Assembly (NCBI RefSeq): GCF_036971445.1
Contig: NC_091474.1
Coordinates: 208,382,001 to 208,446,000, forward strand
From: Narcine bancroftii
Taxonomy: Eukaryota
DNA: 64,000 nt
Direction: 5' to 3'
Shown: piece after piece, positions 1 through 12,047 of the stretch
Layout: every line of letters starts with the position of its first letter
Numbering within the stretch: the stretch's first letter is position 1
The notes under the pieces: generated by a model
The model's input: only the letters and a program-made list of their open reading frames with translations
Database searches by the model: none
Told to the model about the DNA's origin: nothing
Position numbers and translations under genes: made by a program

Positions 1-424
1 TGGAACTGTTTTAATAGTTTCTAAGTTTTAATAGTGGCATTTTGTTTCACTTTGAAGTTTAAATGTGATAATCTGATTCTGCTGTGGCTTTAAATTAATA
101 GTTGTGATACTCTTAACCTGAGTTGAGTAGATGCTAAATGATTCTTTGCTGCATCAGATTTATTTGGTTCTAAACTTGTAACATTTTGTGTGTCTAATGA
201 AGAACTAAATGAGCACTTACCTGTGTGAAATTTGATTATTATTCGAGCAATGGGAGTTGGTGAGTCAACGTGAGGTCCCATCTGCGCATGCGCAGCCATT
301 CCTTTACAGTCCAAGCCACTGAACTTAAATGAGCTAAATTACACGAACCTGTGACTGAACATGTTTATTGCAACCGAAACATCTTTATCCATAAACAAGA
401 AAAAGAGGGGAAGGGAGAGGTGGG

Positions 425-538
425 CACCTTGACTCACCAACTCCCATTTATTGAATAATAATCAAACTTTGCACAGTTAAGTGCTCATTTAACTCTTAAT
501 TATTCTTCGCAATGTACGTGAGTTCACCAACGTGAGAG
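425..538 (-). repeat. DIRS internal complementary region (ICR)
   Basis: About 425-497 is the reverse complement of about 200-272, and about 499-538 is the reverse complement of about 5090-5128 (tctcacgttggcgattctacgtacattgcgaagaataat), with few mismatches. Confidence 0.88.
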
Positions 539-669
539 TTTGTAGCTCAGTGGCTTATCCCCTACAAGTTGTCCGACAGACCATAATCAGTTCAATGTGT
601 CCCCTTCCCCCGGCCTTGTTCAATCTGCTGCTTGTAGAATGGAAGCAGTGAAACAGCCTCTTTGAGTTT

Positions 670-1496
670 AAAGGTTTATCATAGAACTTATTAAACGTTC
701 TCTCATTGCTCCATCCTGCCTGGCAAAGGATATCCCATATAGGGACCTAGTCCCTATTGGCTACCGAGATCACTGAGAAATATCCACTCCAGCCACTCTC
801 ATGACCTCCCGCAGCCATCTGGCCAACTGATGCAGTTTTTTTAATAACATATAAACAGGTATTTCTCATTTAGTCTAATATGTTTTGCACATACAACATC
901 TTTTTAAACAATCCAACATAATCTTTCATCTTTCCCATATGCATACAATGAAAATTCTGCCCAATTCTCCCTTGCCTGTTATGTTTCAAAATGTCTAACT
1001 TGAATGCTTACACTGTCCTCCTTCCAACAGATATGGTCCATATGACTGTGAGACAAAGTTTGTACCCTCTGGGCTGATGTCAAGGCCACCAGCATTATCA
1101 GCTTATGGGACAAGCTACGTAAAGCCAAAATGGAAGTTGGTGACAGTTGCCTTAGATAGTCCAAAACAATCTTTACATCCAAAACTGGTGTACCGGAGGA
1201 CGCAAGTGGAACACTCCTTTTATAAATCTTTTGATCAGGGGTTGGTTCATCATCTCATGCTCAGAGTCCTGGAGTGTCAAGAAAGCAGCCAACACACTCT
1301 TTGCTGTATTCACCGCTCTGTAGCTGGCTCCCTGCAAATGAAATATATCCGTTAGAAAACTCAGTGTGCCTCCGATAGAGGCTGACTGTTCATTCAGCCC
1401 GACTTGGGCACAGTGCTTTTCCATTTCCTCACATGGGAGGCATACTGTTTCTGAGTAGACTTTCTCCAAGACGTCCGCAGGATGTCCAGAGTTCAA
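670..1496 (-). pseudogene. DIRS tyrosine recombinase remnant
   Basis: Fragments ASYRAVNTAKSVL, PLIKRFIKGVFHLRPP, KLIMLVALTSAQRVQTL (catalytic Arg region), and C-terminal ILCQAGWSNERTFNKFYDKPL at about 670-735 (catalytic Tyr). The HxxR part is not recognisable. Confidence 0.85.
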
Positions 1497-1650
1497 GGCT
1501 GTAGAGCTTTTATGTTAATCCTTGCTCTCCGATCCTGCAACCTAACAGATTTAAGTGAGACAATGGCCGAGACCCCTGCTTTTTGTGAATATCAATAGAG
1601 TCCCCACCATAAGCCTAAGGAATACGTGGAGCTATCATTGGGAAGGCCAA

Positions 1651-1857
1651 TTAGACACAACCAGCAATCCCGAGGCAGTCTTCCTGTGTCTTATTCAGGC
1701 ACGTTGCCACGAAGGCGAACGGGGGAAATACATAAAAGTTAAACTTTGACCAGTCTTGGGTAAAGGCGTCAATGAACTCTGCTTGGGGATCCGGCAGCCA
1801 GGACACGAACCTTGGAACATGGGCATTAAGCCTGGATGTGAACAAATCTATCTTCAA
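1651..1857 (-). pseudogene. DIRS Dam-like N6-adenine methyltransferase domain remnant
   Basis: IDLFTSRLNAHVPRFVSW...DAFTQDWSKFNFYVFPPF matches the DIRS MT motifs (DLFAS, YxFPP) and follows RNase H. Confidence 0.85.
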
Positions 1858-1939
1858 AATGCCAAAGGTGTCCGATAGCCGTTTAAAAAATATTTCTTAC
1901 CCAGAGTCCACTCAGTGCTATCATTGGATTTCCTGGACA

Positions 1940-2512
1940 TCAGGTCTGCCTGTAGATCTGACCTGCCAGGTTGGTGGCAGTAACCCAAATGCTCCTCTGA
2001 ATGCACCAGTGACAAGTCTCAATGGTTAACTTGCTACAGGAAAGAGATTTAAGACCTCCCATATTATTGAAGTAGGCCACAGCTGAAGTGTTATCCAACC
2101 TTAGCAGTACATGAATATCAGCTTCCCTTGCACAGAAAGACTTGAGTGCTAGAAACCCTGCTAGCATTTCCAAATAATTGATGACTGATTTAGAGGCCTC
2201 CCTGAGCTCTATGTCGATCCATCTGCCCCCAGTAGAGACCTTTAGATTCATGGCTTCCCAACTGTCGCCACTGGCATCTGACCTGATCTCCAGGTCCACC
2301 TTTCTGAGTTTGATTCTTTCATAAGCCCGTGAGATGTGGTCGATGCACCATACCAGGTTGGATCTGGCCTCACTAGTTAGCCTCATGGGCCTGTCAAAAT
2401 GCCCCCTAGCTGCCTTAAGAGCAGATATTTTGTCCCTTTCCAGGAACCTATAATTTAGTGGGTCATGTACCACTGGGAAAGCTGCCACCAGTTTCCCAAT
2501 CAACTTGGCCAC
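1940..2512 (-). pseudogene. DIRS RNase H domain remnant
   Basis: IRSDASGDSW, INYLEMLAG, LRLDNTSAVAYFNNMGG motifs. Confidence 0.9.
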
Positions 2513-3340
2513 TTATGGCAGGATGACACTCTGTCATGAGCCCTCTGCAGGCTGTCCTGATTTTTGTCGCTTTATCCTCTAGCAGGGTAAGTCTCATCAT
2601 GTCTTCTGTATTAATAATGAAGCCGAGGAATTTTAACCTCTTGGAAAGCACCAACACTGATTTCTCAGGATGTATAAGAAACCCCACATGGTTTAATAAT
2701 CTTGGTGGCTGCTTCTGCCCTTTCTGTCTCCTCGAACGATCTACCCACGATAAGAGTATCATCTAGGTAACCCGTTACCATGTGTCCCTCTTTCCTGAGG
2801 TTGGCAAACACAGGCTTCAATAACTTGTTAAATGTTCTGGGTCCTGAGCTCTGCCCATTCGGCAAAGCTTTGTACTGCCATAGCTCTCCCTTCCAGGAAA
2901 ATTTCAAGAACTTCCTGAGCTGTGGGCAGATTGCAACCGAATAATATGCATCTTGCAAATCTTTTGAGCCATGTAATAGCCCTTGTCTAACATCGGCATC
3001 ACAGAATATGTTATCCATTTTAAAATGCCTGTACAAGATGCATTCGTTAAGATCCGATAGATCCAGTATCACTCTAGTGCTTTCACTTCTTTTGGGTTGC
3101 GTGCGGATGTTTTCATGGCTACAACGTTCAATAACGTTTTTCCTTTTAATGCCATGATGTCAGCATGCACAGCCTCTGTCGGTTGTGGTCTGTGCATATA
3201 TGTATATAGACCCTTCCTCTTTACCGGAGGGGATTTCTGTGGATCAAATTCTATCTTCTACCCCTTCACTGCCAAATAGAGACATCAGTGGTAATATTAC
3301 ACCATCTATCATAGAATAGCGTTAATTGACCGCAAACCTT
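2513..3340 (-). pseudogene. DIRS reverse transcriptase remnant
   Basis: ILDLSDLN, FKMDN, DLQDAYYSVAI, LPNGQSSGPRTF, GYLDD, then frameshifted GFLIHPEKSVL and FLGFII. Confidence 0.92.
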
Positions 3341-3399
3341 TAAAGCCATGTAATTATCAAGAGTACTCAACTGTAAATGTGTAGTGTTCACTTCCTTGA

Positions 3400-4574
3400 C
3401 CCACCTAGTCTGCGGGCTGCTGCATTCTGGGCCCACTTCCGCGAAACACTTTGAGCGGCAAAATTCTGCTGCCGCTGTAGCCACAGAGGGTGTTGCCCTA
3501 AAAGAGGCCAGTTGGCTGTAGCCGCTTGGAGTGGGGAAACCACCTCGGATAACCCGCTTAAATTCCCCCACGTACCTGCAATAGGGGTGAAACTTAACAG
3601 GTTCTCTTGCCTGTGCTCTCAGACCCCTGACCATGCCAGCCGCTGCCCTCTGCTGCTTATTCAAATCTTTCACCTGTTTGTTGAGATCGTCACCAAATAG
3701 AAATTTTGTTATAGGATGGATGGTCTGCACAAATGAGCATATCTTGCATTTTAGGTTGGGCCTCATCAGCTCCTTCTTGAAGGCATTCAGTTGATGGTTT
3801 GCATGGGATAACAGCCCCAAAGCATCTTGTTGAGTGTCCGATAAATTGTGTGTGTTTGTGCAAATGGAGTGATACCTTTAACCAGTGACCCCCGTAGCCT
3901 TTGCAGTTTCATGTCTTTTGCCTTTGTGGGGACCTTCAAATTGTCCCATGTTGCAGGGTTTACTTTGGGCACCTCCAACAGAGGGCAGTTAACGGGGCAG
4001 GGGTACTTGATGGATTCTTCTAGTACCGTCTCCTGAAAAGCATTTGACACCATATTATAGACCCTGCAATATCTTCCTCTAGTGGCTGGCCGATACCCTC
4101 CGGTACAGCAAACTTCGCAGCAATAGTTGGTATATGGCTCTCATCCTGACTGGCCTGAGCAATGTATGGGGATTTGGGTGACTTGGCCTCCATTACCGGC
4201 CCTTCATCTTCCCATGTATAATCATAAATCTCCTCCCCCTGCTCTGATGGCATAGAAAACCTGCTCACCATGGCCATCACCAGTTCCTCTAATTTGTCCA
4301 GACAACTTACAATTTCATTGCTGGTTGAGGCCTCTGATCTCTGGCAGGCCTTGCTCTTTAGCCCCGATTTGAGTGGGCAGAGACCTCTTCCTTTGGGCTT
4401 TTTCTGGTTGTTCTTGCCTGTTGAGTGAGCAGCTTCACTACACGACGTGTTAAGTTTGACACAGATCCTACCTGCTCTTGTGCGGGGTACTCTCCCTCGC
4501 TGCCACTCGATAGACTGAGGTCCAATTGTCTTGTGCTGCAGCACTGCTTGCTTTTTGAGACCCCCGACTTCCAC
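3400..4574 (-). pseudogene. DIRS ORF1 (gag-like) remnant
   Basis: Consecutive frameshifted ORFs (YPCPVNCPLLEVPKVNPATW, LLSHANHQLN, FLFGDDL) lying upstream of RT inside the element termini. Confidence 0.7.
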
Positions 4575-5647
4575 GAAGCCAGATTGGTGCAGCCAGACTT
4601 GGACCCCACCTTCAGCAAAGGTAGGCCACTGCTGCCTGATCCCACCCCCAATGGAGGTAGATTGGCCTTGCTGCTCCTCAGCTGGGACACTGTACCCCAG
4701 CAGGCCCGCTGGATTTTTGGTGCTAACGAAGTGCCATGGTGCCTCTTGGAGGCCTTCCTCCTCGGGTTCTTGCTGCCCTGCCTTTGCCCCAGCCCCTCAT
4801 CAGGACCCAGGAGCCTCCTGCTGGTTGTCCCGGATTTTTTACTGCTACCCTCCTCCGGTGAGCTCATTCGGGGGTTTGATTCCATTTTGTGGATTGCACT
4901 CTTGTGATCTCCCTCAGGGCTCTGCTCCTGCAGGCCCACTAAGTTGGGGCTTTTTTTGTGATCGCTCTACTGTGATTTTTCCCCCCCCCCCCCACACCCC
5001 ACTGATTCAGCACTTTTGCTCCCACGCTAAAAACACGTGCTGCTCCTTGCAAGTCAACGGATGTATTGGCTGTGCATGCACGGTTGGGATCTCACGTTGG
5101 CGATTCTACGTACATTGCGAAGAATAATAATAAACTGTACAAATGCACCAAATTCTGTCTTGCTGCAGCCACACAGGAATGTAAATGCACCAATAGTGTC
5201 AATTAAGTTCCATAATGAGCCATGTGATTAATATAAATGTTCAGCGCAGTTAGTGCAAAAACAAAAGCTTCAGTCAGGCACACATCTTTTGGTGGTACTG
5301 GAGTATTTTATGGCGAGATTGAAGAGCGAGGGAGGGGTTAAAAACCTGCACAAGAGGGGTAAAAACTCCTTCAATCTGGAGGTGCTAAATTGAAGCTTTT
5401 GTACCTTTTTGCCTAAAGGCAACAGTAAGACAGTAATCATGAGTGGATGATGGGGATTCTTTGCTGCCTTCTTTTACTTTCACTGTTGACTTAACTGGCT
5501 CTAGGAGAACATACCTATGCGGATTCCCCAGAAACTGGAGCTCTTGGCCCTCTCCACTGCTGTTGTGCCAATGAAGATCTTGACACTCAAGCACCCTTCT
5601 TAATCAGGACTTTGCTAAGGCCAGGAATGCATTTTGTCTGTCATTGC

Positions 5648-8511
5648 TGGCACCGCCCTAGCGGTCAGTGGCACCGCCCTAGCGGTCAGTGGCACCGCCC
5701 TAGCGGTCAGTGGCACCGCCCTAGCGGTCAGTGGCACCGCCCTAGCGGTCAGTGGCACCGCCCTAGCGGTCAGTGGCACCGCCCTAGCGGTCAGTGGCAC
5801 CGCCCTAGCGGTCAGTGGCACCGCCCTAGCGGTCAGTGGCACCGCCCTAGCGGTCAGTGGCACCGCCCTAGCGGTCAGTGGCACCGCCCTAGCGGTCAGT
5901 GGCACCGCCCTAGCGGTCAGTGGCACCGCCCTAGCGGTCAGTGGCACCGCCCTAGCGGTCAGTGGCACCGCCCTAGCGGTCAGTGGCACCGCCCTAGCGG
6001 TCAGTGGCACCGCCCTAGCGGTCAGTGGCACCGCCCTAGCGGTCAGTGGCACCGCCCTAGCGGTCAGTGGCACCGCCCTAGCGGTCAGTGGCACCGCCCT
6101 AGCGGTCAGTGGCACCGCCCTAGCGGTCAGTGGCACCGCCCTAGCGGTCAGTGGCACCGCCCTAGCGGTCAGTGGCACCGCCCTAGCGGTCAGTGGCACC
6201 GCCCTAGCGGTCAGTGGCACCGCCCTAGCGGTCAGTGGCACCGCCCTAGCGGTCAGTGGCACCGCCCTAGCGGTCAGTGGCACCGCCCTAGCGGTCAGTG
6301 GCACCGCCCTAGCGGTCAGTGGCACCGCCCTAGCGGTCAGTGGCACCGCCCTAGCGGTCAGTGGCACCGCCCTAGCGGTCAGTGGCACCGCCCTAGCGGT
6401 CAGTGGCACCGCCCTAGCGGTCAGTGGCACCGCCCTAGCGGTCAGTGGCACCGCCCTAGCGGTCAGTGGCACCGCCCTAGCGGTCAGTGGCACCGCCCTA
6501 GCGGTCAGTGGCACCGCCCTAGCGGTCAGTGGCACCGCCCTAGCGGTCAGTGGCACCGCCCTAGCGGTCAGTGGCACCGCCCTAGCGGTCAGTGGCACCG
6601 CCCTAGCGGTCAGTGGCACCGCCCTAGCGGTCAGTGGCACCGCCCTAGCGGTCAGTGGCACCGCCCTAGCGGTCAGTGGCACCGCCCTAGCGGTCAGTGG
6701 CACCGCCCTAGCGGTCAGTGGCACCGCCCTAGCGGTCAGTGGCACCGCCCTAGCGGTCAGTGGCACCGCCCTAGCGGTCAGTGGCACCGCCCTAGCGGTC
6801 AGTGGCACCGCCCTAGCGGTCAGTGGCACCGCCCTAGCGGTCAGTGGCACCGCCCTAGCGGTCAGTGGCACCGCCCTAGCGGTCAGTGGCACCGCCCTAG
6901 CGGTCAGTGGCACCGCCCTAGCGGTCAGTGGCACCGCCCTAGCGGTCAGTGGCACCGCCCTAGCGGTCAGTGGCACCGCCCTAGCGGTCAGTGGCACCGC
7001 CCTAGCGGTCAGTGGCACCGCCCTAGCGGTCAGTGGCACCGCCCTAGCGGTCAGTGGCACCGCCCTAGCGGTCAGTGGCACCGCCCTAGCGGTCAGTGGC
7101 ACCGCCCTAGCGGTCAGTGGCACCGCCCTAGCGGTCAGTGGCACCGCCCTAGCGGTCAGTGGCACCGCCCTAGCGGTCAGTGGCACCGCCCTAGCGGTCA
7201 GTGGCACCGCCCTAGCGGTCAGTGGCACCGCCCTAGCGGTCAGTGGCACCGCCCTAGCGGTCAGTGGCACCGCCCTAGCGGTCAGTGGCACCGCCCTAGC
7301 GGTCAGTGGCACCGCCCTAGCGGTCAGTGGCACCGCCCTAGCGGTCAGTGGCACCGCCCTAGCGGTCAGTGGCACCGCCCTAGCGGTCAGTGGCACCGCC
7401 CTAGCGGTCAGTGGCACCGCCCTAGCGGTCAGTGGCACCGCCCTAGCGGTCAGTGGCACCGCCCTAGCGGTCAGTGGCACCGCCCTAGCGGTCAGTGGCA
7501 CCGCCCTAGCGGTCAGTGGCACCGCCCTAGCGGTCAGTGGCACCGCCCTAGCGGTCAGTGGCACCGCCCTAGCGGTCAGTGGCACCGCCCTAGCGGTCAG
7601 TGGCACCGCCCTAGCGGTCAGTGGCACCGCCCTAGCGGTCAGTGGCACCGCCCTAGCGGTCAGTGGCACCGCCCTAGCGGTCAGTGGCACCGCCCTAGCG
7701 GTCAGTGGCACCGCCCTAGCGGTCAGTGGCACCGCCCTAGCGGTCAGTGGCACCGCCCTAGCGGTCAGTGGCACCGCCCTAGCGGTCAGTGGCACCGCCC
7801 TAGCGGTCAGTGGCACCGCCCTAGCGGTCAGTGGCACCGCCCTAGCGGTCAGTGGCACCGCCCTAGCGGTCAGTGGCACCGCCCTAGCGGTCAGTGGCAC
7901 CGCCCTAGCGGTCAGTGGCACCGCCCTAGCGGTCAGTGGCACCGCCCTAGCGGTCAGTGGCACCGCCCTAGCGGTCAGTGGCACCGCCCTAGCGGTCAGT
8001 GGCACCGCCCTAGCGGTCAGTGGCACCGCCCTAGCGGTCAGTGGCACCGCCCTAGCGGTCAGTGGCACCGCCCTAGCGGTCAGTGGCACCGCCCTAGCGG
8101 TCAGTGGCACCGCCCTAGCGGTCAGTGGCACCGCCCTAGCGGTCAGTGGCACCGCCCTAGCGGTCAGTGGCACCGCCCTAGCGGTCAGTGGCACCGCCCT
8201 AGCGGTCAGTGGCACCGCCCTAGCGGTCAGTGGCACCGCCCTAGCGGTCAGTGGCACCGCCCTAGCGGTCAGTGGCACCGCCCTAGCGGTCAGTGGCACC
8301 GCCCTAGCGGTCAGTGGCACCGCCCTAGCGGTCAGTGGCACCGCCCTAGCGGTCAGTGGCACCGCCCTAGCGGTCAGTGGCACCGCCCTAGCGGTCAGTG
8401 GCACCGCCCTAGCGGTCAGTGGCACCGCCCTAGCGGTCAGTGGCACCGCCCTAGCGGTCAGTGGCACCGCCCTAGCGGTCAGTGGCACCGCCCTAGCGGT
8501 CAGTGGCACCG
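5648..8511. repeat. Homogeneous minisatellite, 21-bp unit TGGCACCGCCCTAGCGGTCAG, about 136 copies
   Basis: 2864 bp / 21 = 136.4 units. No variant unit seen; the ORF track translations are invariant 7-aa repeats. Unit is 15/21 GC with 2 CpG. Confidence 0.99.
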
Positions 8512-9109
8512 AGGCATACATCTGATCGATGAGAATACATAACCTGAGGCAGTATAATGCATCTATTCCCTGTGCTCACCGAAGATTTGTGGGAATTAAG
8601 CAAACATTCAAAGTACTAGTTAAATGCAGAATGCAGTATTCTTGGCATGTAACTATTTTGTTTCCTCTGGTTGGGTTGTCATTTTGGGGATATGAGTGAT
8701 CGAAGATGCTGGAGTATATGGAAGGGTGGGTTGGGGGAGGGGGCAGCTGGTAGGTTTTTTTTGTGTGAGACTGGTGAAGGGGATAGTGTTGAGAAATGTA
8801 TTTGCTAGCTTTTTTTTAAACAGTCCTGAGGACCACGAAAAGGATTTTTGGAAATTGCCGGGCATGATTTTGTGGTCTCCTTTTCCGAGCCTAAGGAGAA
8901 ACCAAAAACTATCGTGCTTGCCTTCACTTCCAATCAGTCACACTTGCTATTTGCTAGTTATGGAGGCAAAACAAACCTTTATATATTGGACTTAATTTCT
9001 ATGACTGCATAGATGGCAAGGTGCTGTTTGAACGTGGGATGGAATGGAAGAAGTTCCATCACACTATATTGACAATAATGATGACTTGATGTGAATGTTT
9101 CTCTTTCAG

Positions 9110-9181
9110 AACAATATGATACTTTCGTGAAGTTCACGCACGATCAGATTATGCGACGATATGGCGAACAACCTGCGAGCT
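9110..9181 (+). CDS. AKIRIN2: Akirin-2, penultimate coding exon (72 nt)
   Basis: ctctttcag acceptor, gtaagt donor; encodes (E)[29 protein letters not shown] distinguishes akirin-2 from akirin-1. Confidence 0.97.
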
Positions 9182-10328: not shown

Positions 10329-10986
10329 GGCCTTTTCATAGACTGCCTCAGCATGGAGGCCAGCTTAAAAGCCGAATGAAAAGGTGTTTCTTGCCTTTAC
10401 ACGCAGTTCCACAAAAGCCTGCTCCAATGTCCCCTTTCAGCCTGTAGGCAGCTGGGGTGTTGATACAGGTTTCAGGAGGCATGGCTACTGGTTCCATGAC
10501 ACCATACATGCTGAGCAATGGCTGACTTTGTTACCCATAATTCCCCCAAGCAGCTGGAACTGCTGTGTTTCCCAGAACAGTTCCAGCTGCTTGGGGGATC
10601 ATGAGTAGGGTAGACAGTCATTACTTTGACACTGGTGTTGACAAGCAGCCTGGTGAGGTGCTGGGGCAGCTGGCCTCCGCCGGCAGTGCCCCTGCTCTTA
10701 GGGGATCGTGGAGGGAGAGGGATGAGTGAGATGGGCTGTGGGCAGATAATATCACTGCGATGTCATCAGCCCATCCCCAGACAGCCACTTACAGCGGCAT
10801 TACATTCATGCCAGGCAGCAGAGCACAGTGCTCTATCGCTGACCCTCCCACACCTCCCCACCCCTGAGAGGGATTGCAGTCGGTGCCTTGGAGTCGGCAG
10901 GGTGCATTCATGAAGGTAAGTCTCCTGGCATAAAGGCAGAGAATCTCTGCCTTTACAGTCGGTCTTTTTGACTGCATGAAAGGGCC
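10329..10986. mobile_element. Non-autonomous DNA transposon (MITE)
   Basis: Inverted termini ggccttttcat / atgaaagggcc, TA on both sides, GC-rich interior that splits the Penelope-like sequence. Confidence 0.55.
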
Positions 10987-12036: not shown

Positions 12037-12047
12037 ATGTATCCTGA
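12037..12047 (+). CDS. AKIRIN2: Akirin-2 terminal coding exon (YVS-stop)
   Basis: Pyrimidine tract and ttccag acceptor, then AT GTA TCC TGA; completes the conserved akirin SYVS C-terminus in phase with the previous exon. Confidence 0.95.

What the first reader, a model, noticed from the sequence alone, without database searches (positions are those of the whole stretch)
5648..8511. 2.86-kb apparently mutation-free 21-bp CpG-rich array in a presumed AKIRIN2 intron
Seen: about 136 identical units with roughly 270 CpGs and no visible CpG-to-TpG decay, sharp edges, and CpG-poor flanks. Inference: very recent expansion or strong homogenisation, probably a hypervariable VNTR; consensus polishing of a collapsed repeat is the alternative.
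Basis: partly seen in the sequence, partly recalled or inferred. Interest (0 to 1): 0.7.

Follow-up and report, generated by a model that had tools for sequence, protein, structure and literature searches.

The report
Young pure minisatellite in Akirin2 intron
A 21-letter DNA unit is repeated 136 times without a single difference inside an intron of the Akirin2 gene; its length is not an assembly error and it is spliced out of the mRNA, and it is most likely an ordinary repeat that grew too recently to have collected mutations.

Summary
Confirmed: 136 identical 21-mers plus 8 bases, 273 CpGs, sharp edges, in intron 3 of Akirin2, with spliced exon 3-4 junctions in two RNA runs. The exact unit occurs only here in the 3.3-Gb genome. 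The artefact reading is unlikely. Word depth in two runs of the possible source sample gives about 124 copies against 135 expected, and other arrays in this assembly keep variant units. The purity is rare (0 of 140 sampled 10-kb slices hold a perfect run of 500 bases) but tops a continuum of pure, CpG-rich arrays. At a shark mutation rate it needs only an age under about 0.6-7 million generations. Best reading: a young single-locus minisatellite, born between 8-base direct repeats and grown by unit duplication, with no shown function. Hairpin and CTCF likeness are at chance level. Length variation between individuals, methylation and the ancestral state remain untested. The scan noted a similar array elsewhere in this genome (e1-9966723).

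The parts
5648..8511 (.). Perfect tandem array, 136 x 21 bp plus 8 bp; 71% G+C, 273 CpG; about 29% of intron 3
5648..5655 (+). First 8 bases of the unit; likely the left member of the ancestral short direct repeat (inferred)
   Evidence: sequence
8504..8511 (+). Incomplete terminal unit, 8 bases; likely the right member of the ancestral direct repeat (inferred)
5652..5665 (.). 5-bp stem with 4-base loop in every unit (first copy given); not better than shuffled units
   Evidence: 127 of 600 shuffled-unit arrays fold as well on +; 47 of 600 have a stem of 5 or more
5653..5658 (-). GC-box hexamer in every unit (first copy given; motif recalled, picked after seeing the sequence)
   Evidence: 20 of 600 shuffled units hold one
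5663..5669 (+). 5' splice-site-like word across each unit junction (first copy given); no use seen
   Evidence: 5 of 600 shuffled units; no joint from the array to exon 4 in 2 of 2 spliced RNA runs
5131..5647 (.). Left flank, single-copy in the genome DNA search; a short repeat-family fragment lies at 5136-5187
8512..9109 (.). Right flank, single-copy, 3' end of intron 3
9110..9181 (+). Akirin2 exon 4
12037..12047 (+). Coding part of Akirin2 exon 5 (completes YVS and the stop)
247..5128 (-). Decayed retrotransposon with inverted ends in the same intron, DIRS1-type (label recalled from its layout); serves as local age control
   Evidence: RVT_1 E 3.9e-10; Dam-like below cut-off; inverted arms; 79-85% identity to 39 other copies scored

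Best explanation
A single-locus array of 136 identical 21-base units lies in Akirin2 intron 3 and is spliced out of the mRNA; it is likely a young minisatellite with no selected function that grew by whole-unit duplication faster than point mutations arose. Shown: purity, position, single locus, length support from read words, splicing of exon 3 to exon 4. Inferred birth: a 29-base stretch bounded by an 8-base direct repeat mispaired once (slippage or unequal exchange) and gave two units, which leaves the 8-base incomplete last unit. Inferred growth: each gain in length and the lack of interruptions raised the rate of further unit gains and losses, by slippage and unequal exchange or repair synthesis, so all present units share an ancestor younger than roughly 0.6-7 million generations. 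The intact CpGs then need no special protection. The locus is predicted to vary in length between individuals.
For: 136 of 136 units identical, 8-base remainder, no decayed edge units. Exact unit: 136 matches in the genome, all here; flanks single-copy. Depth of the array record over flank records in the possible source sample: X1 630/5.1 = 124; X4 440/2.8 = 157 and 440/4.3 = 102; 135 expected. X4 shows a 50-base and a 31-base record of equal depth, the shape of a pure 21-word cycle, with no other letters listed. The assembly keeps variants in other arrays: 11 unit types among 56 in L057, 27 among 47 in L133. Shorter perfect CpG-rich arrays are common: four of 210-334 bases with 16-25 CpGs in 140 slices. 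The retrotransposon in the same intron is 79-85% identical to the 39 other copies scored, so the region is not shielded from mutation. An incomplete last unit and 5-10-bp direct repeats are the published marks of minisatellite birth (PMC3389668, passages). Longer and purer alleles mutate more in a human pedigree (PMC13060803, passages).
Against: The purity-length pair is extreme: the longest perfect run in 1.4 Mb sampled was 463 bases. Length polymorphism is not shown. No short allele was seen: left-flank records of X1, X5 and X6 all end at 5677, where a one-unit allele would break them a base earlier. The ancestral single-unit state was not found in any relative. Any array can end in a partial unit, so the 8-base remainder is only suggestive. 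The age bound borrows another species' mutation rate (95% interval 1.4-14.1e-10) and an assumed tenfold CpG rate. Contigs drop rare variants, so a few variant units are not excluded; X5 has one 51-base record with 2 other letters at depth 4.4 against 1887. Nothing here separates gradual growth from one burst.
Confidence: 0.74

Rival explanations
1. One-step burst: the 21-base unit was amplified in one or a few events (rolling-circle copying of a tiny excised circle or loop, or repeated template switching during break repair), not by gradual steps.
For: Zero variants, sharp edges and no decayed units are what a burst gives; no perfect run of 500 bases in 140 slices.
Against: Steady growth also gives zero variants within 2.5-6.8 million generations. 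The genome shows a continuum of lengths and purities, and the nearby L057 array has blocks of related unit types that suggest stepwise growth. A 21-base double-stranded circle is physically implausible (own knowledge).
Confidence: 0.11
2. Functional element: the array acts as a new unmethylated CpG island with 136 GC boxes (intronic promoter or enhancer), or as a bank of splice-donor decoys that slows removal of intron 3.
For: Meets CpG-island sequence criteria (criteria recalled). GC box in 20 of 600 and donor-like word in 5 of 600 shuffled units; among 37 other arrays sampled 1 has a GC box and 0 a donor-like word. Intronic VNTRs at CACNA1C and ABCA7 affect enhancer activity and splicing (PMC13196383, passages).
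Against: Both motifs were picked after seeing the unit, out of four features tested. Exon 3 joins exon 4 in 2 of 2 spliced RNA runs, and no joint from the array to exon 4 is listed. No extra record lies on the left flank that would mark a cryptic exon. A purely young array has had little time for selection. No methylation, strand or start-site data.
Confidence: 0.07
3. Assembly artefact: a collapsed, stretched or consensus-flattened repeat.
For: No record spans the array; contigs drop rare variants; depth ratios are rough (102-157).
Against: Source-sample depth gives about 124 copies against 135. Both junctions are present letter for letter in contigs of the source sample. The unit is present unchanged in three further samples of the species (X5, X6, X7). 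Other arrays in the assembly keep their variants. The unit has no exact match in prokaryote genomes or viral contigs.
Confidence: 0.04
4. Old array kept uniform by continual gene conversion between units.
For: Gene conversion is a known force at minisatellites (PMC3389668, passages).
Against: No decayed units at either edge, where conversion is weakest (expectation from own knowledge). The one relative examined (organism B) has no contig that lays on either flank as its own sequence, so age could not be tested.
Confidence: 0.04

Closest known systems
Lineage-specific intronic VNTRs of humans: CACNA1C intron 3 TRACT (30 bp), WDR7 intron 27 (69 bp), ABCA7 intron 18 (25 bp); PMC13196383, passages
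   Same: Single-locus, intronic, unit of 20-70 bases, many copies. TRACT grew from a single 30-bp copy, the history inferred here.
   Different: TRACT and the WDR7 repeat are described with variant units and effects on expression or disease; this array has no variant unit, no shown polymorphism and no shown effect.
Minisatellite birth between short direct repeats (Haber and Louis 1998; Taylor and Breden 2000), seen only as cited in PMC3389668, passages
   Same: Incomplete terminal unit; 8-base repeat within the 5-10-bp range.
   Different: The pre-duplication allele was not found, so the model fits but is not shown.
   Same: GC-rich, CpG-bearing, kilobase-long single-locus array.
   Different: Those carry variant units and G-quadruplex motifs (recalled). 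This unit has only one run of three G per unit on one strand, and its mutation rate is unknown.

Membership tests
Single-locus minisatellite / VNTR | Head-to-tail units of 7 bases or more | tested here: met
   21-base period, 136.4 copies; definition in PMC13060803
Single-locus minisatellite / VNTR | Confined to one locus with single-copy flanks | tested here: met
   136 of 136 exact matches here; flanks
Single-locus minisatellite / VNTR | Copy number varies between individuals | tested here: inconclusive
   Only one sample has DNA runs. RNA-run ratios range from 20 to 147 depending on the reference record and cannot size an allele.
Hypermutable minisatellite | More than 1% de novo alleles per generation | not testable with these tools
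   needs pedigrees or sperm typing
Direct-repeat-born minisatellite | Incomplete last unit or 5-10-bp flanking direct repeat | tested here: met
   8-base remainder
Direct-repeat-born minisatellite | Single-unit allele in a relative or paralogue | tested here: inconclusive
   No paralogous flank; organism B's intron does not lay at 80%
Multi-locus satellite or transposon-derived repeat family | Unit or flanks found at many loci | tested here: not met
   Exact unit nowhere else; 19-base core with up to 2 mismatches at 9 other places against 1 for the reversed control; only 1 of the 9 could be viewed and it is a lone copy
CpG island | Over 500 bases, G+C over 55%, CpG observed/expected over 0.65 (criteria recalled) | tested here: met
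   2864 bases, 71%, 0.75
CpG island | Unmethylated in the germ line | not testable with these tools
   no methylation data
CTCF-site array | Match to the CTCF core (consensus recalled) | tested here: not met
   3 mismatches in 13; 277 of 600 shuffled units do as well
G-quadruplex minisatellite | Four runs of three or more G within short loops | tested here: not met
   By inspection of the unit: one run of three G per 21 bases on the minus strand
Known structured RNA | Rfam match | tested here: not met
   No match over the array at E up to 1

The most novel reading that the evidence does not exclude
A runaway repeat has built, from one 21-base word, a new 2.9-kb unmethylated CpG island with 136 GC boxes and 136 splice-donor-like words inside a proteasome-import gene. 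It now acts as an intronic promoter or splicing brake, so that allele length tunes Akirin2 output or drives transcripts into the neighbouring retrotransposon.
Probability: 0.07. Interest if true: 0.6.

Novelty: new member of a known kind. Interest (0 to 1): 0.22.

Why it matters
As it stands, it is a clean example of a known thing: a young intronic minisatellite. Its value is practical. It is a likely highly informative population marker, and a tidy test case for two open points: whether pure kilobase arrays grow gradually or in bursts, and whether a newborn CpG-dense array is methylated. It also shows that in slowly mutating cartilaginous fishes perfect purity is weak evidence of extreme youth or of artefact. 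It would matter more only if allele length were shown to change Akirin2 splicing or expression.

Tried and rejected
Hairpin-driven expansion: the z-score of -3.3 came from shuffles that destroy the repetition. With shuffled units made into arrays, 127 of 600 (+) and 215 of 600 (-) fold as well, so the hairpin is not special. CTCF-site array: chance level. Origin from a transposon or a dispersed family: not supported; 8 of the 9 near-matches could not be viewed, and the reversed control has one more CpG than the pattern, which lowers its count. Coding: four of six frames are open through the unit, as is common for a GC-rich 21-mer; the stretch is spliced out and no protein search was made with them. 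Bacterial or viral origin: 0 matches. Rfam: nothing on the array. Organism B (X9) holds the unit as a 51-base record at depth 69.5 with no attached flank. Its own exon-4 contig (depth 71.2) differs at 13 of 87 bases, and a separate 182-base piece is identical to the window at depth 2.4. I read this as trace DNA of organism A in that run (0.5-fold cover predicts a word share of 0.095, 0.09 seen), not as conservation; the near-equal depths 69.5 and 71.2 are the one point against that reading. RNA depths: array over left flank 33-35 (X5, X6), over the 3' end of intron 3 20-24, over intron 4 140-147 (X6, X7). Contig depth cannot rank parts of a gene, so neither a shorter allele nor intron retention is claimed. 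X6 and X7 have no cover from 8512 to about 8777 and 8809; a hole proves nothing. No RNA holder is on record as RNA. The sigma-70 scan is irrelevant to a vertebrate. Two papers were not held. No report of this array turned up in one search for akirin2, tandem repeat and intron (2 unrelated papers, listing only); some searches were general searches. No supplements were read.

Full report
Observation. The array is as described. Tandem Repeats Finder gives 5648-8511, period 21, 136.4 copies, 100% matches. A direct count gives 136 of 136 identical units, an 8-base remainder equal to the start of the unit, and 273 CpGs; the perfect run ends sharply on both sides. CpG observed/expected is 0.75 in the array, 0.32 and 0.48 in the 1-kb flanks and 0.35 in an 800-kb genome sample. 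So the array is CpG-dense mainly through its 71% G+C, and the flanks are ordinary.

Gene context. The exon at 9110-9181 matches Akirin-2 in PDB 7nht. Exons 1, 2 and 3 lie about 19.2, 7.0 and 0.8 kb upstream of the window, so the array is in intron 3, about 9.86 kb long, of which it is 29%. In runs X6 and X7 the loose ends at exon 4 are exon 3 sequence, and in X6 also exon 5 sequence; these runs are RNA and the intron is spliced out. The same intron holds a decayed retrotransposon at about 247-5128 on the minus strand, with reverse transcriptase, a weak Dam-like match and inverted ends; I call it DIRS1-type from recall. It ends about 520 bases before the array. Earlier notes call the genome an electric ray's; I did not test that.

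Single locus. The exact unit has 136 matches in 3.33 Gb, all here. A 19-base core with up to 2 mismatches has 9 further matches against 1 for the reversed control. Two patterns built to exclude the array showed only 1 of the 9, a lone copy. Both flanks are single-copy apart from the retrotransposon end. The unit is absent from prokaryote genomes and viral contigs and matches no Rfam family.

Artefact test. Nine runs hold the stretch; I laid six of them on the two flanks, each with 50 bases of the array. In the possible source sample, the array record is 124 times as deep as the left-flank record in X1, and 157 and 102 times as deep as the left and right records in X4; 135 is expected for the assembled length. 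These are rough single-record ratios at 3- to 5-fold cover, but they exclude a large collapse or stretch. X4 shows the array as a 50-base and a 31-base record of equal depth with no other letters, the shape of a pure cycle of 21 words, and both junctions are present unchanged. The unit is also unchanged in samples S2-S4. The assembly does not flatten repeats: an array about 110 kb away has 11 unit types among 56, another 27 among 47. Limits: no record spans the array, contigs drop rare variants, and X5 has one low-depth record with 2 other letters.

How unusual. In 140 slices of 10 kb (100 widely spaced, 40 from the same chromosome region) none has a perfect run of 500 bases; the longest is 463. 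But 37 arrays were listed, 4 of them at 96% or more, one of those 4.8 kb long (one 99% array was merged with its neighbour in that list). Four perfect runs of 210-334 bases keep 16-25 CpGs each. The array is the far end of a continuum. Simple tandem repeats are reported as abundant in stingray and epaulette shark (10.1101/2025.06.08.657570, passages).

Age. With 7e-10 mutations per base per generation (PMC10587355, passages; a different species), zero variants give 95% upper bounds of 1.5 million generations for one burst and 6.8 million for steady growth, or 0.55 and 2.5 million with an assumed tenfold CpG rate. That is the depth of ordinary within-species variation in that shark (mean pairwise coalescence about 1.4 million generations). 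The neighbouring retrotransposon is only 79-85% identical to the 39 other copies scored, so the intron does mutate and the array is far younger. Missing CpG decay therefore needs no protective mechanism.

Mechanism. I commit to birth by mispairing between two 8-base direct repeats 21 bases apart, followed by repeated whole-unit gains that outran point mutation (confidence 0.74). An incomplete last unit and 5-10-bp direct repeats are the published marks of such births (PMC3389668, passages), and longer, purer alleles mutate more often (PMC13060803, passages). Both steps are inferred. Each unit holds a 5-bp hairpin, but shuffled-unit arrays fold as well in 127 of 600 cases, so I do not credit it. 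A one-step burst (0.11) cannot be told apart without allele lengths.

Function. None shown. CTCF likeness is at chance level. Each unit has a GC box (20 of 600 shuffles) and a donor-like word (5 of 600), both picked after the fact; among 37 other arrays 1 and 0 have them. No joint from the array to exon 4 is listed in X6 or X7, and the left flank is a single flat record in X5 and X6. Human intronic VNTRs can act on enhancers and splicing (PMC13196383, passages), so a regulatory side effect is not excluded (0.07).

Relatives. The only other organism listed (X9) has its own exon-4 contig, 13 differences in 87 bases, whose intron does not lay on the flanks. Its copy of the unit is best read as trace DNA of organism A. 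The ancestral state is therefore unknown. The scan's index holds no look-alike stretch and no nearby note.

Verdict. A real, single-locus, unusually pure young minisatellite; a new member of a known kind; interest 0.22. It works like a VNTR, but membership is incomplete because length variation was not shown.

Noticed in passing
window 9181 joined to 11748: One RNA contig in X7 (31 bases, depth 75, against about 1200 for exon 4 records) joins exon 4 to a cryptic acceptor in intron 4, just upstream of a dispersed repeat. The junction creates a stop at once and removes the terminal YVS, which human AKIRIN2 needs to bind the proteasome (10.1101/2024.11.08.622636, passages). Seen in 1 of 2 spliced runs; possibly a decay-targeted or inactive minor isoform.
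   Followed up: partly
L070, L092, L099, L108, L116, L118, L128, L177: A 14-base GC-rich satellite at 77-80% unit match fills 8 of 100 widely spaced 10-kb slices on six contigs, so it may make up several percent of the genome.
   Followed up: no
window 247-5128, minus strand: Near-complete but broken DIRS1-type retrotransposon (label recalled) in Akirin2 intron 3, with inverted ends and at least 39 other copies at 79-85% identity.
   Followed up: partly
window 8724-8743: Four runs of three to five G with 1-2-base loops, a canonical G-quadruplex motif on the sense strand, 210 bases after the array.
   Followed up: no
L057:4810-5938: Compound minisatellite in which 28-, 19- and 9-base units and two single-base variants form ordered blocks, a readable record of stepwise growth.
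   Followed up: partly
window 10543-10597: Near-perfect inverted repeat in intron 4, scored by Rfam as mir-503 on both strands but below the family's cut-off; likely a hairpin or transposon remnant, not a microRNA.
   Followed up: no
run X9 on window 8961-9142 and the array: A run labelled organism B holds DNA identical to organism A at low depth beside its own diverged Akirin2 contig, likely carry-over.
   Followed up: partly
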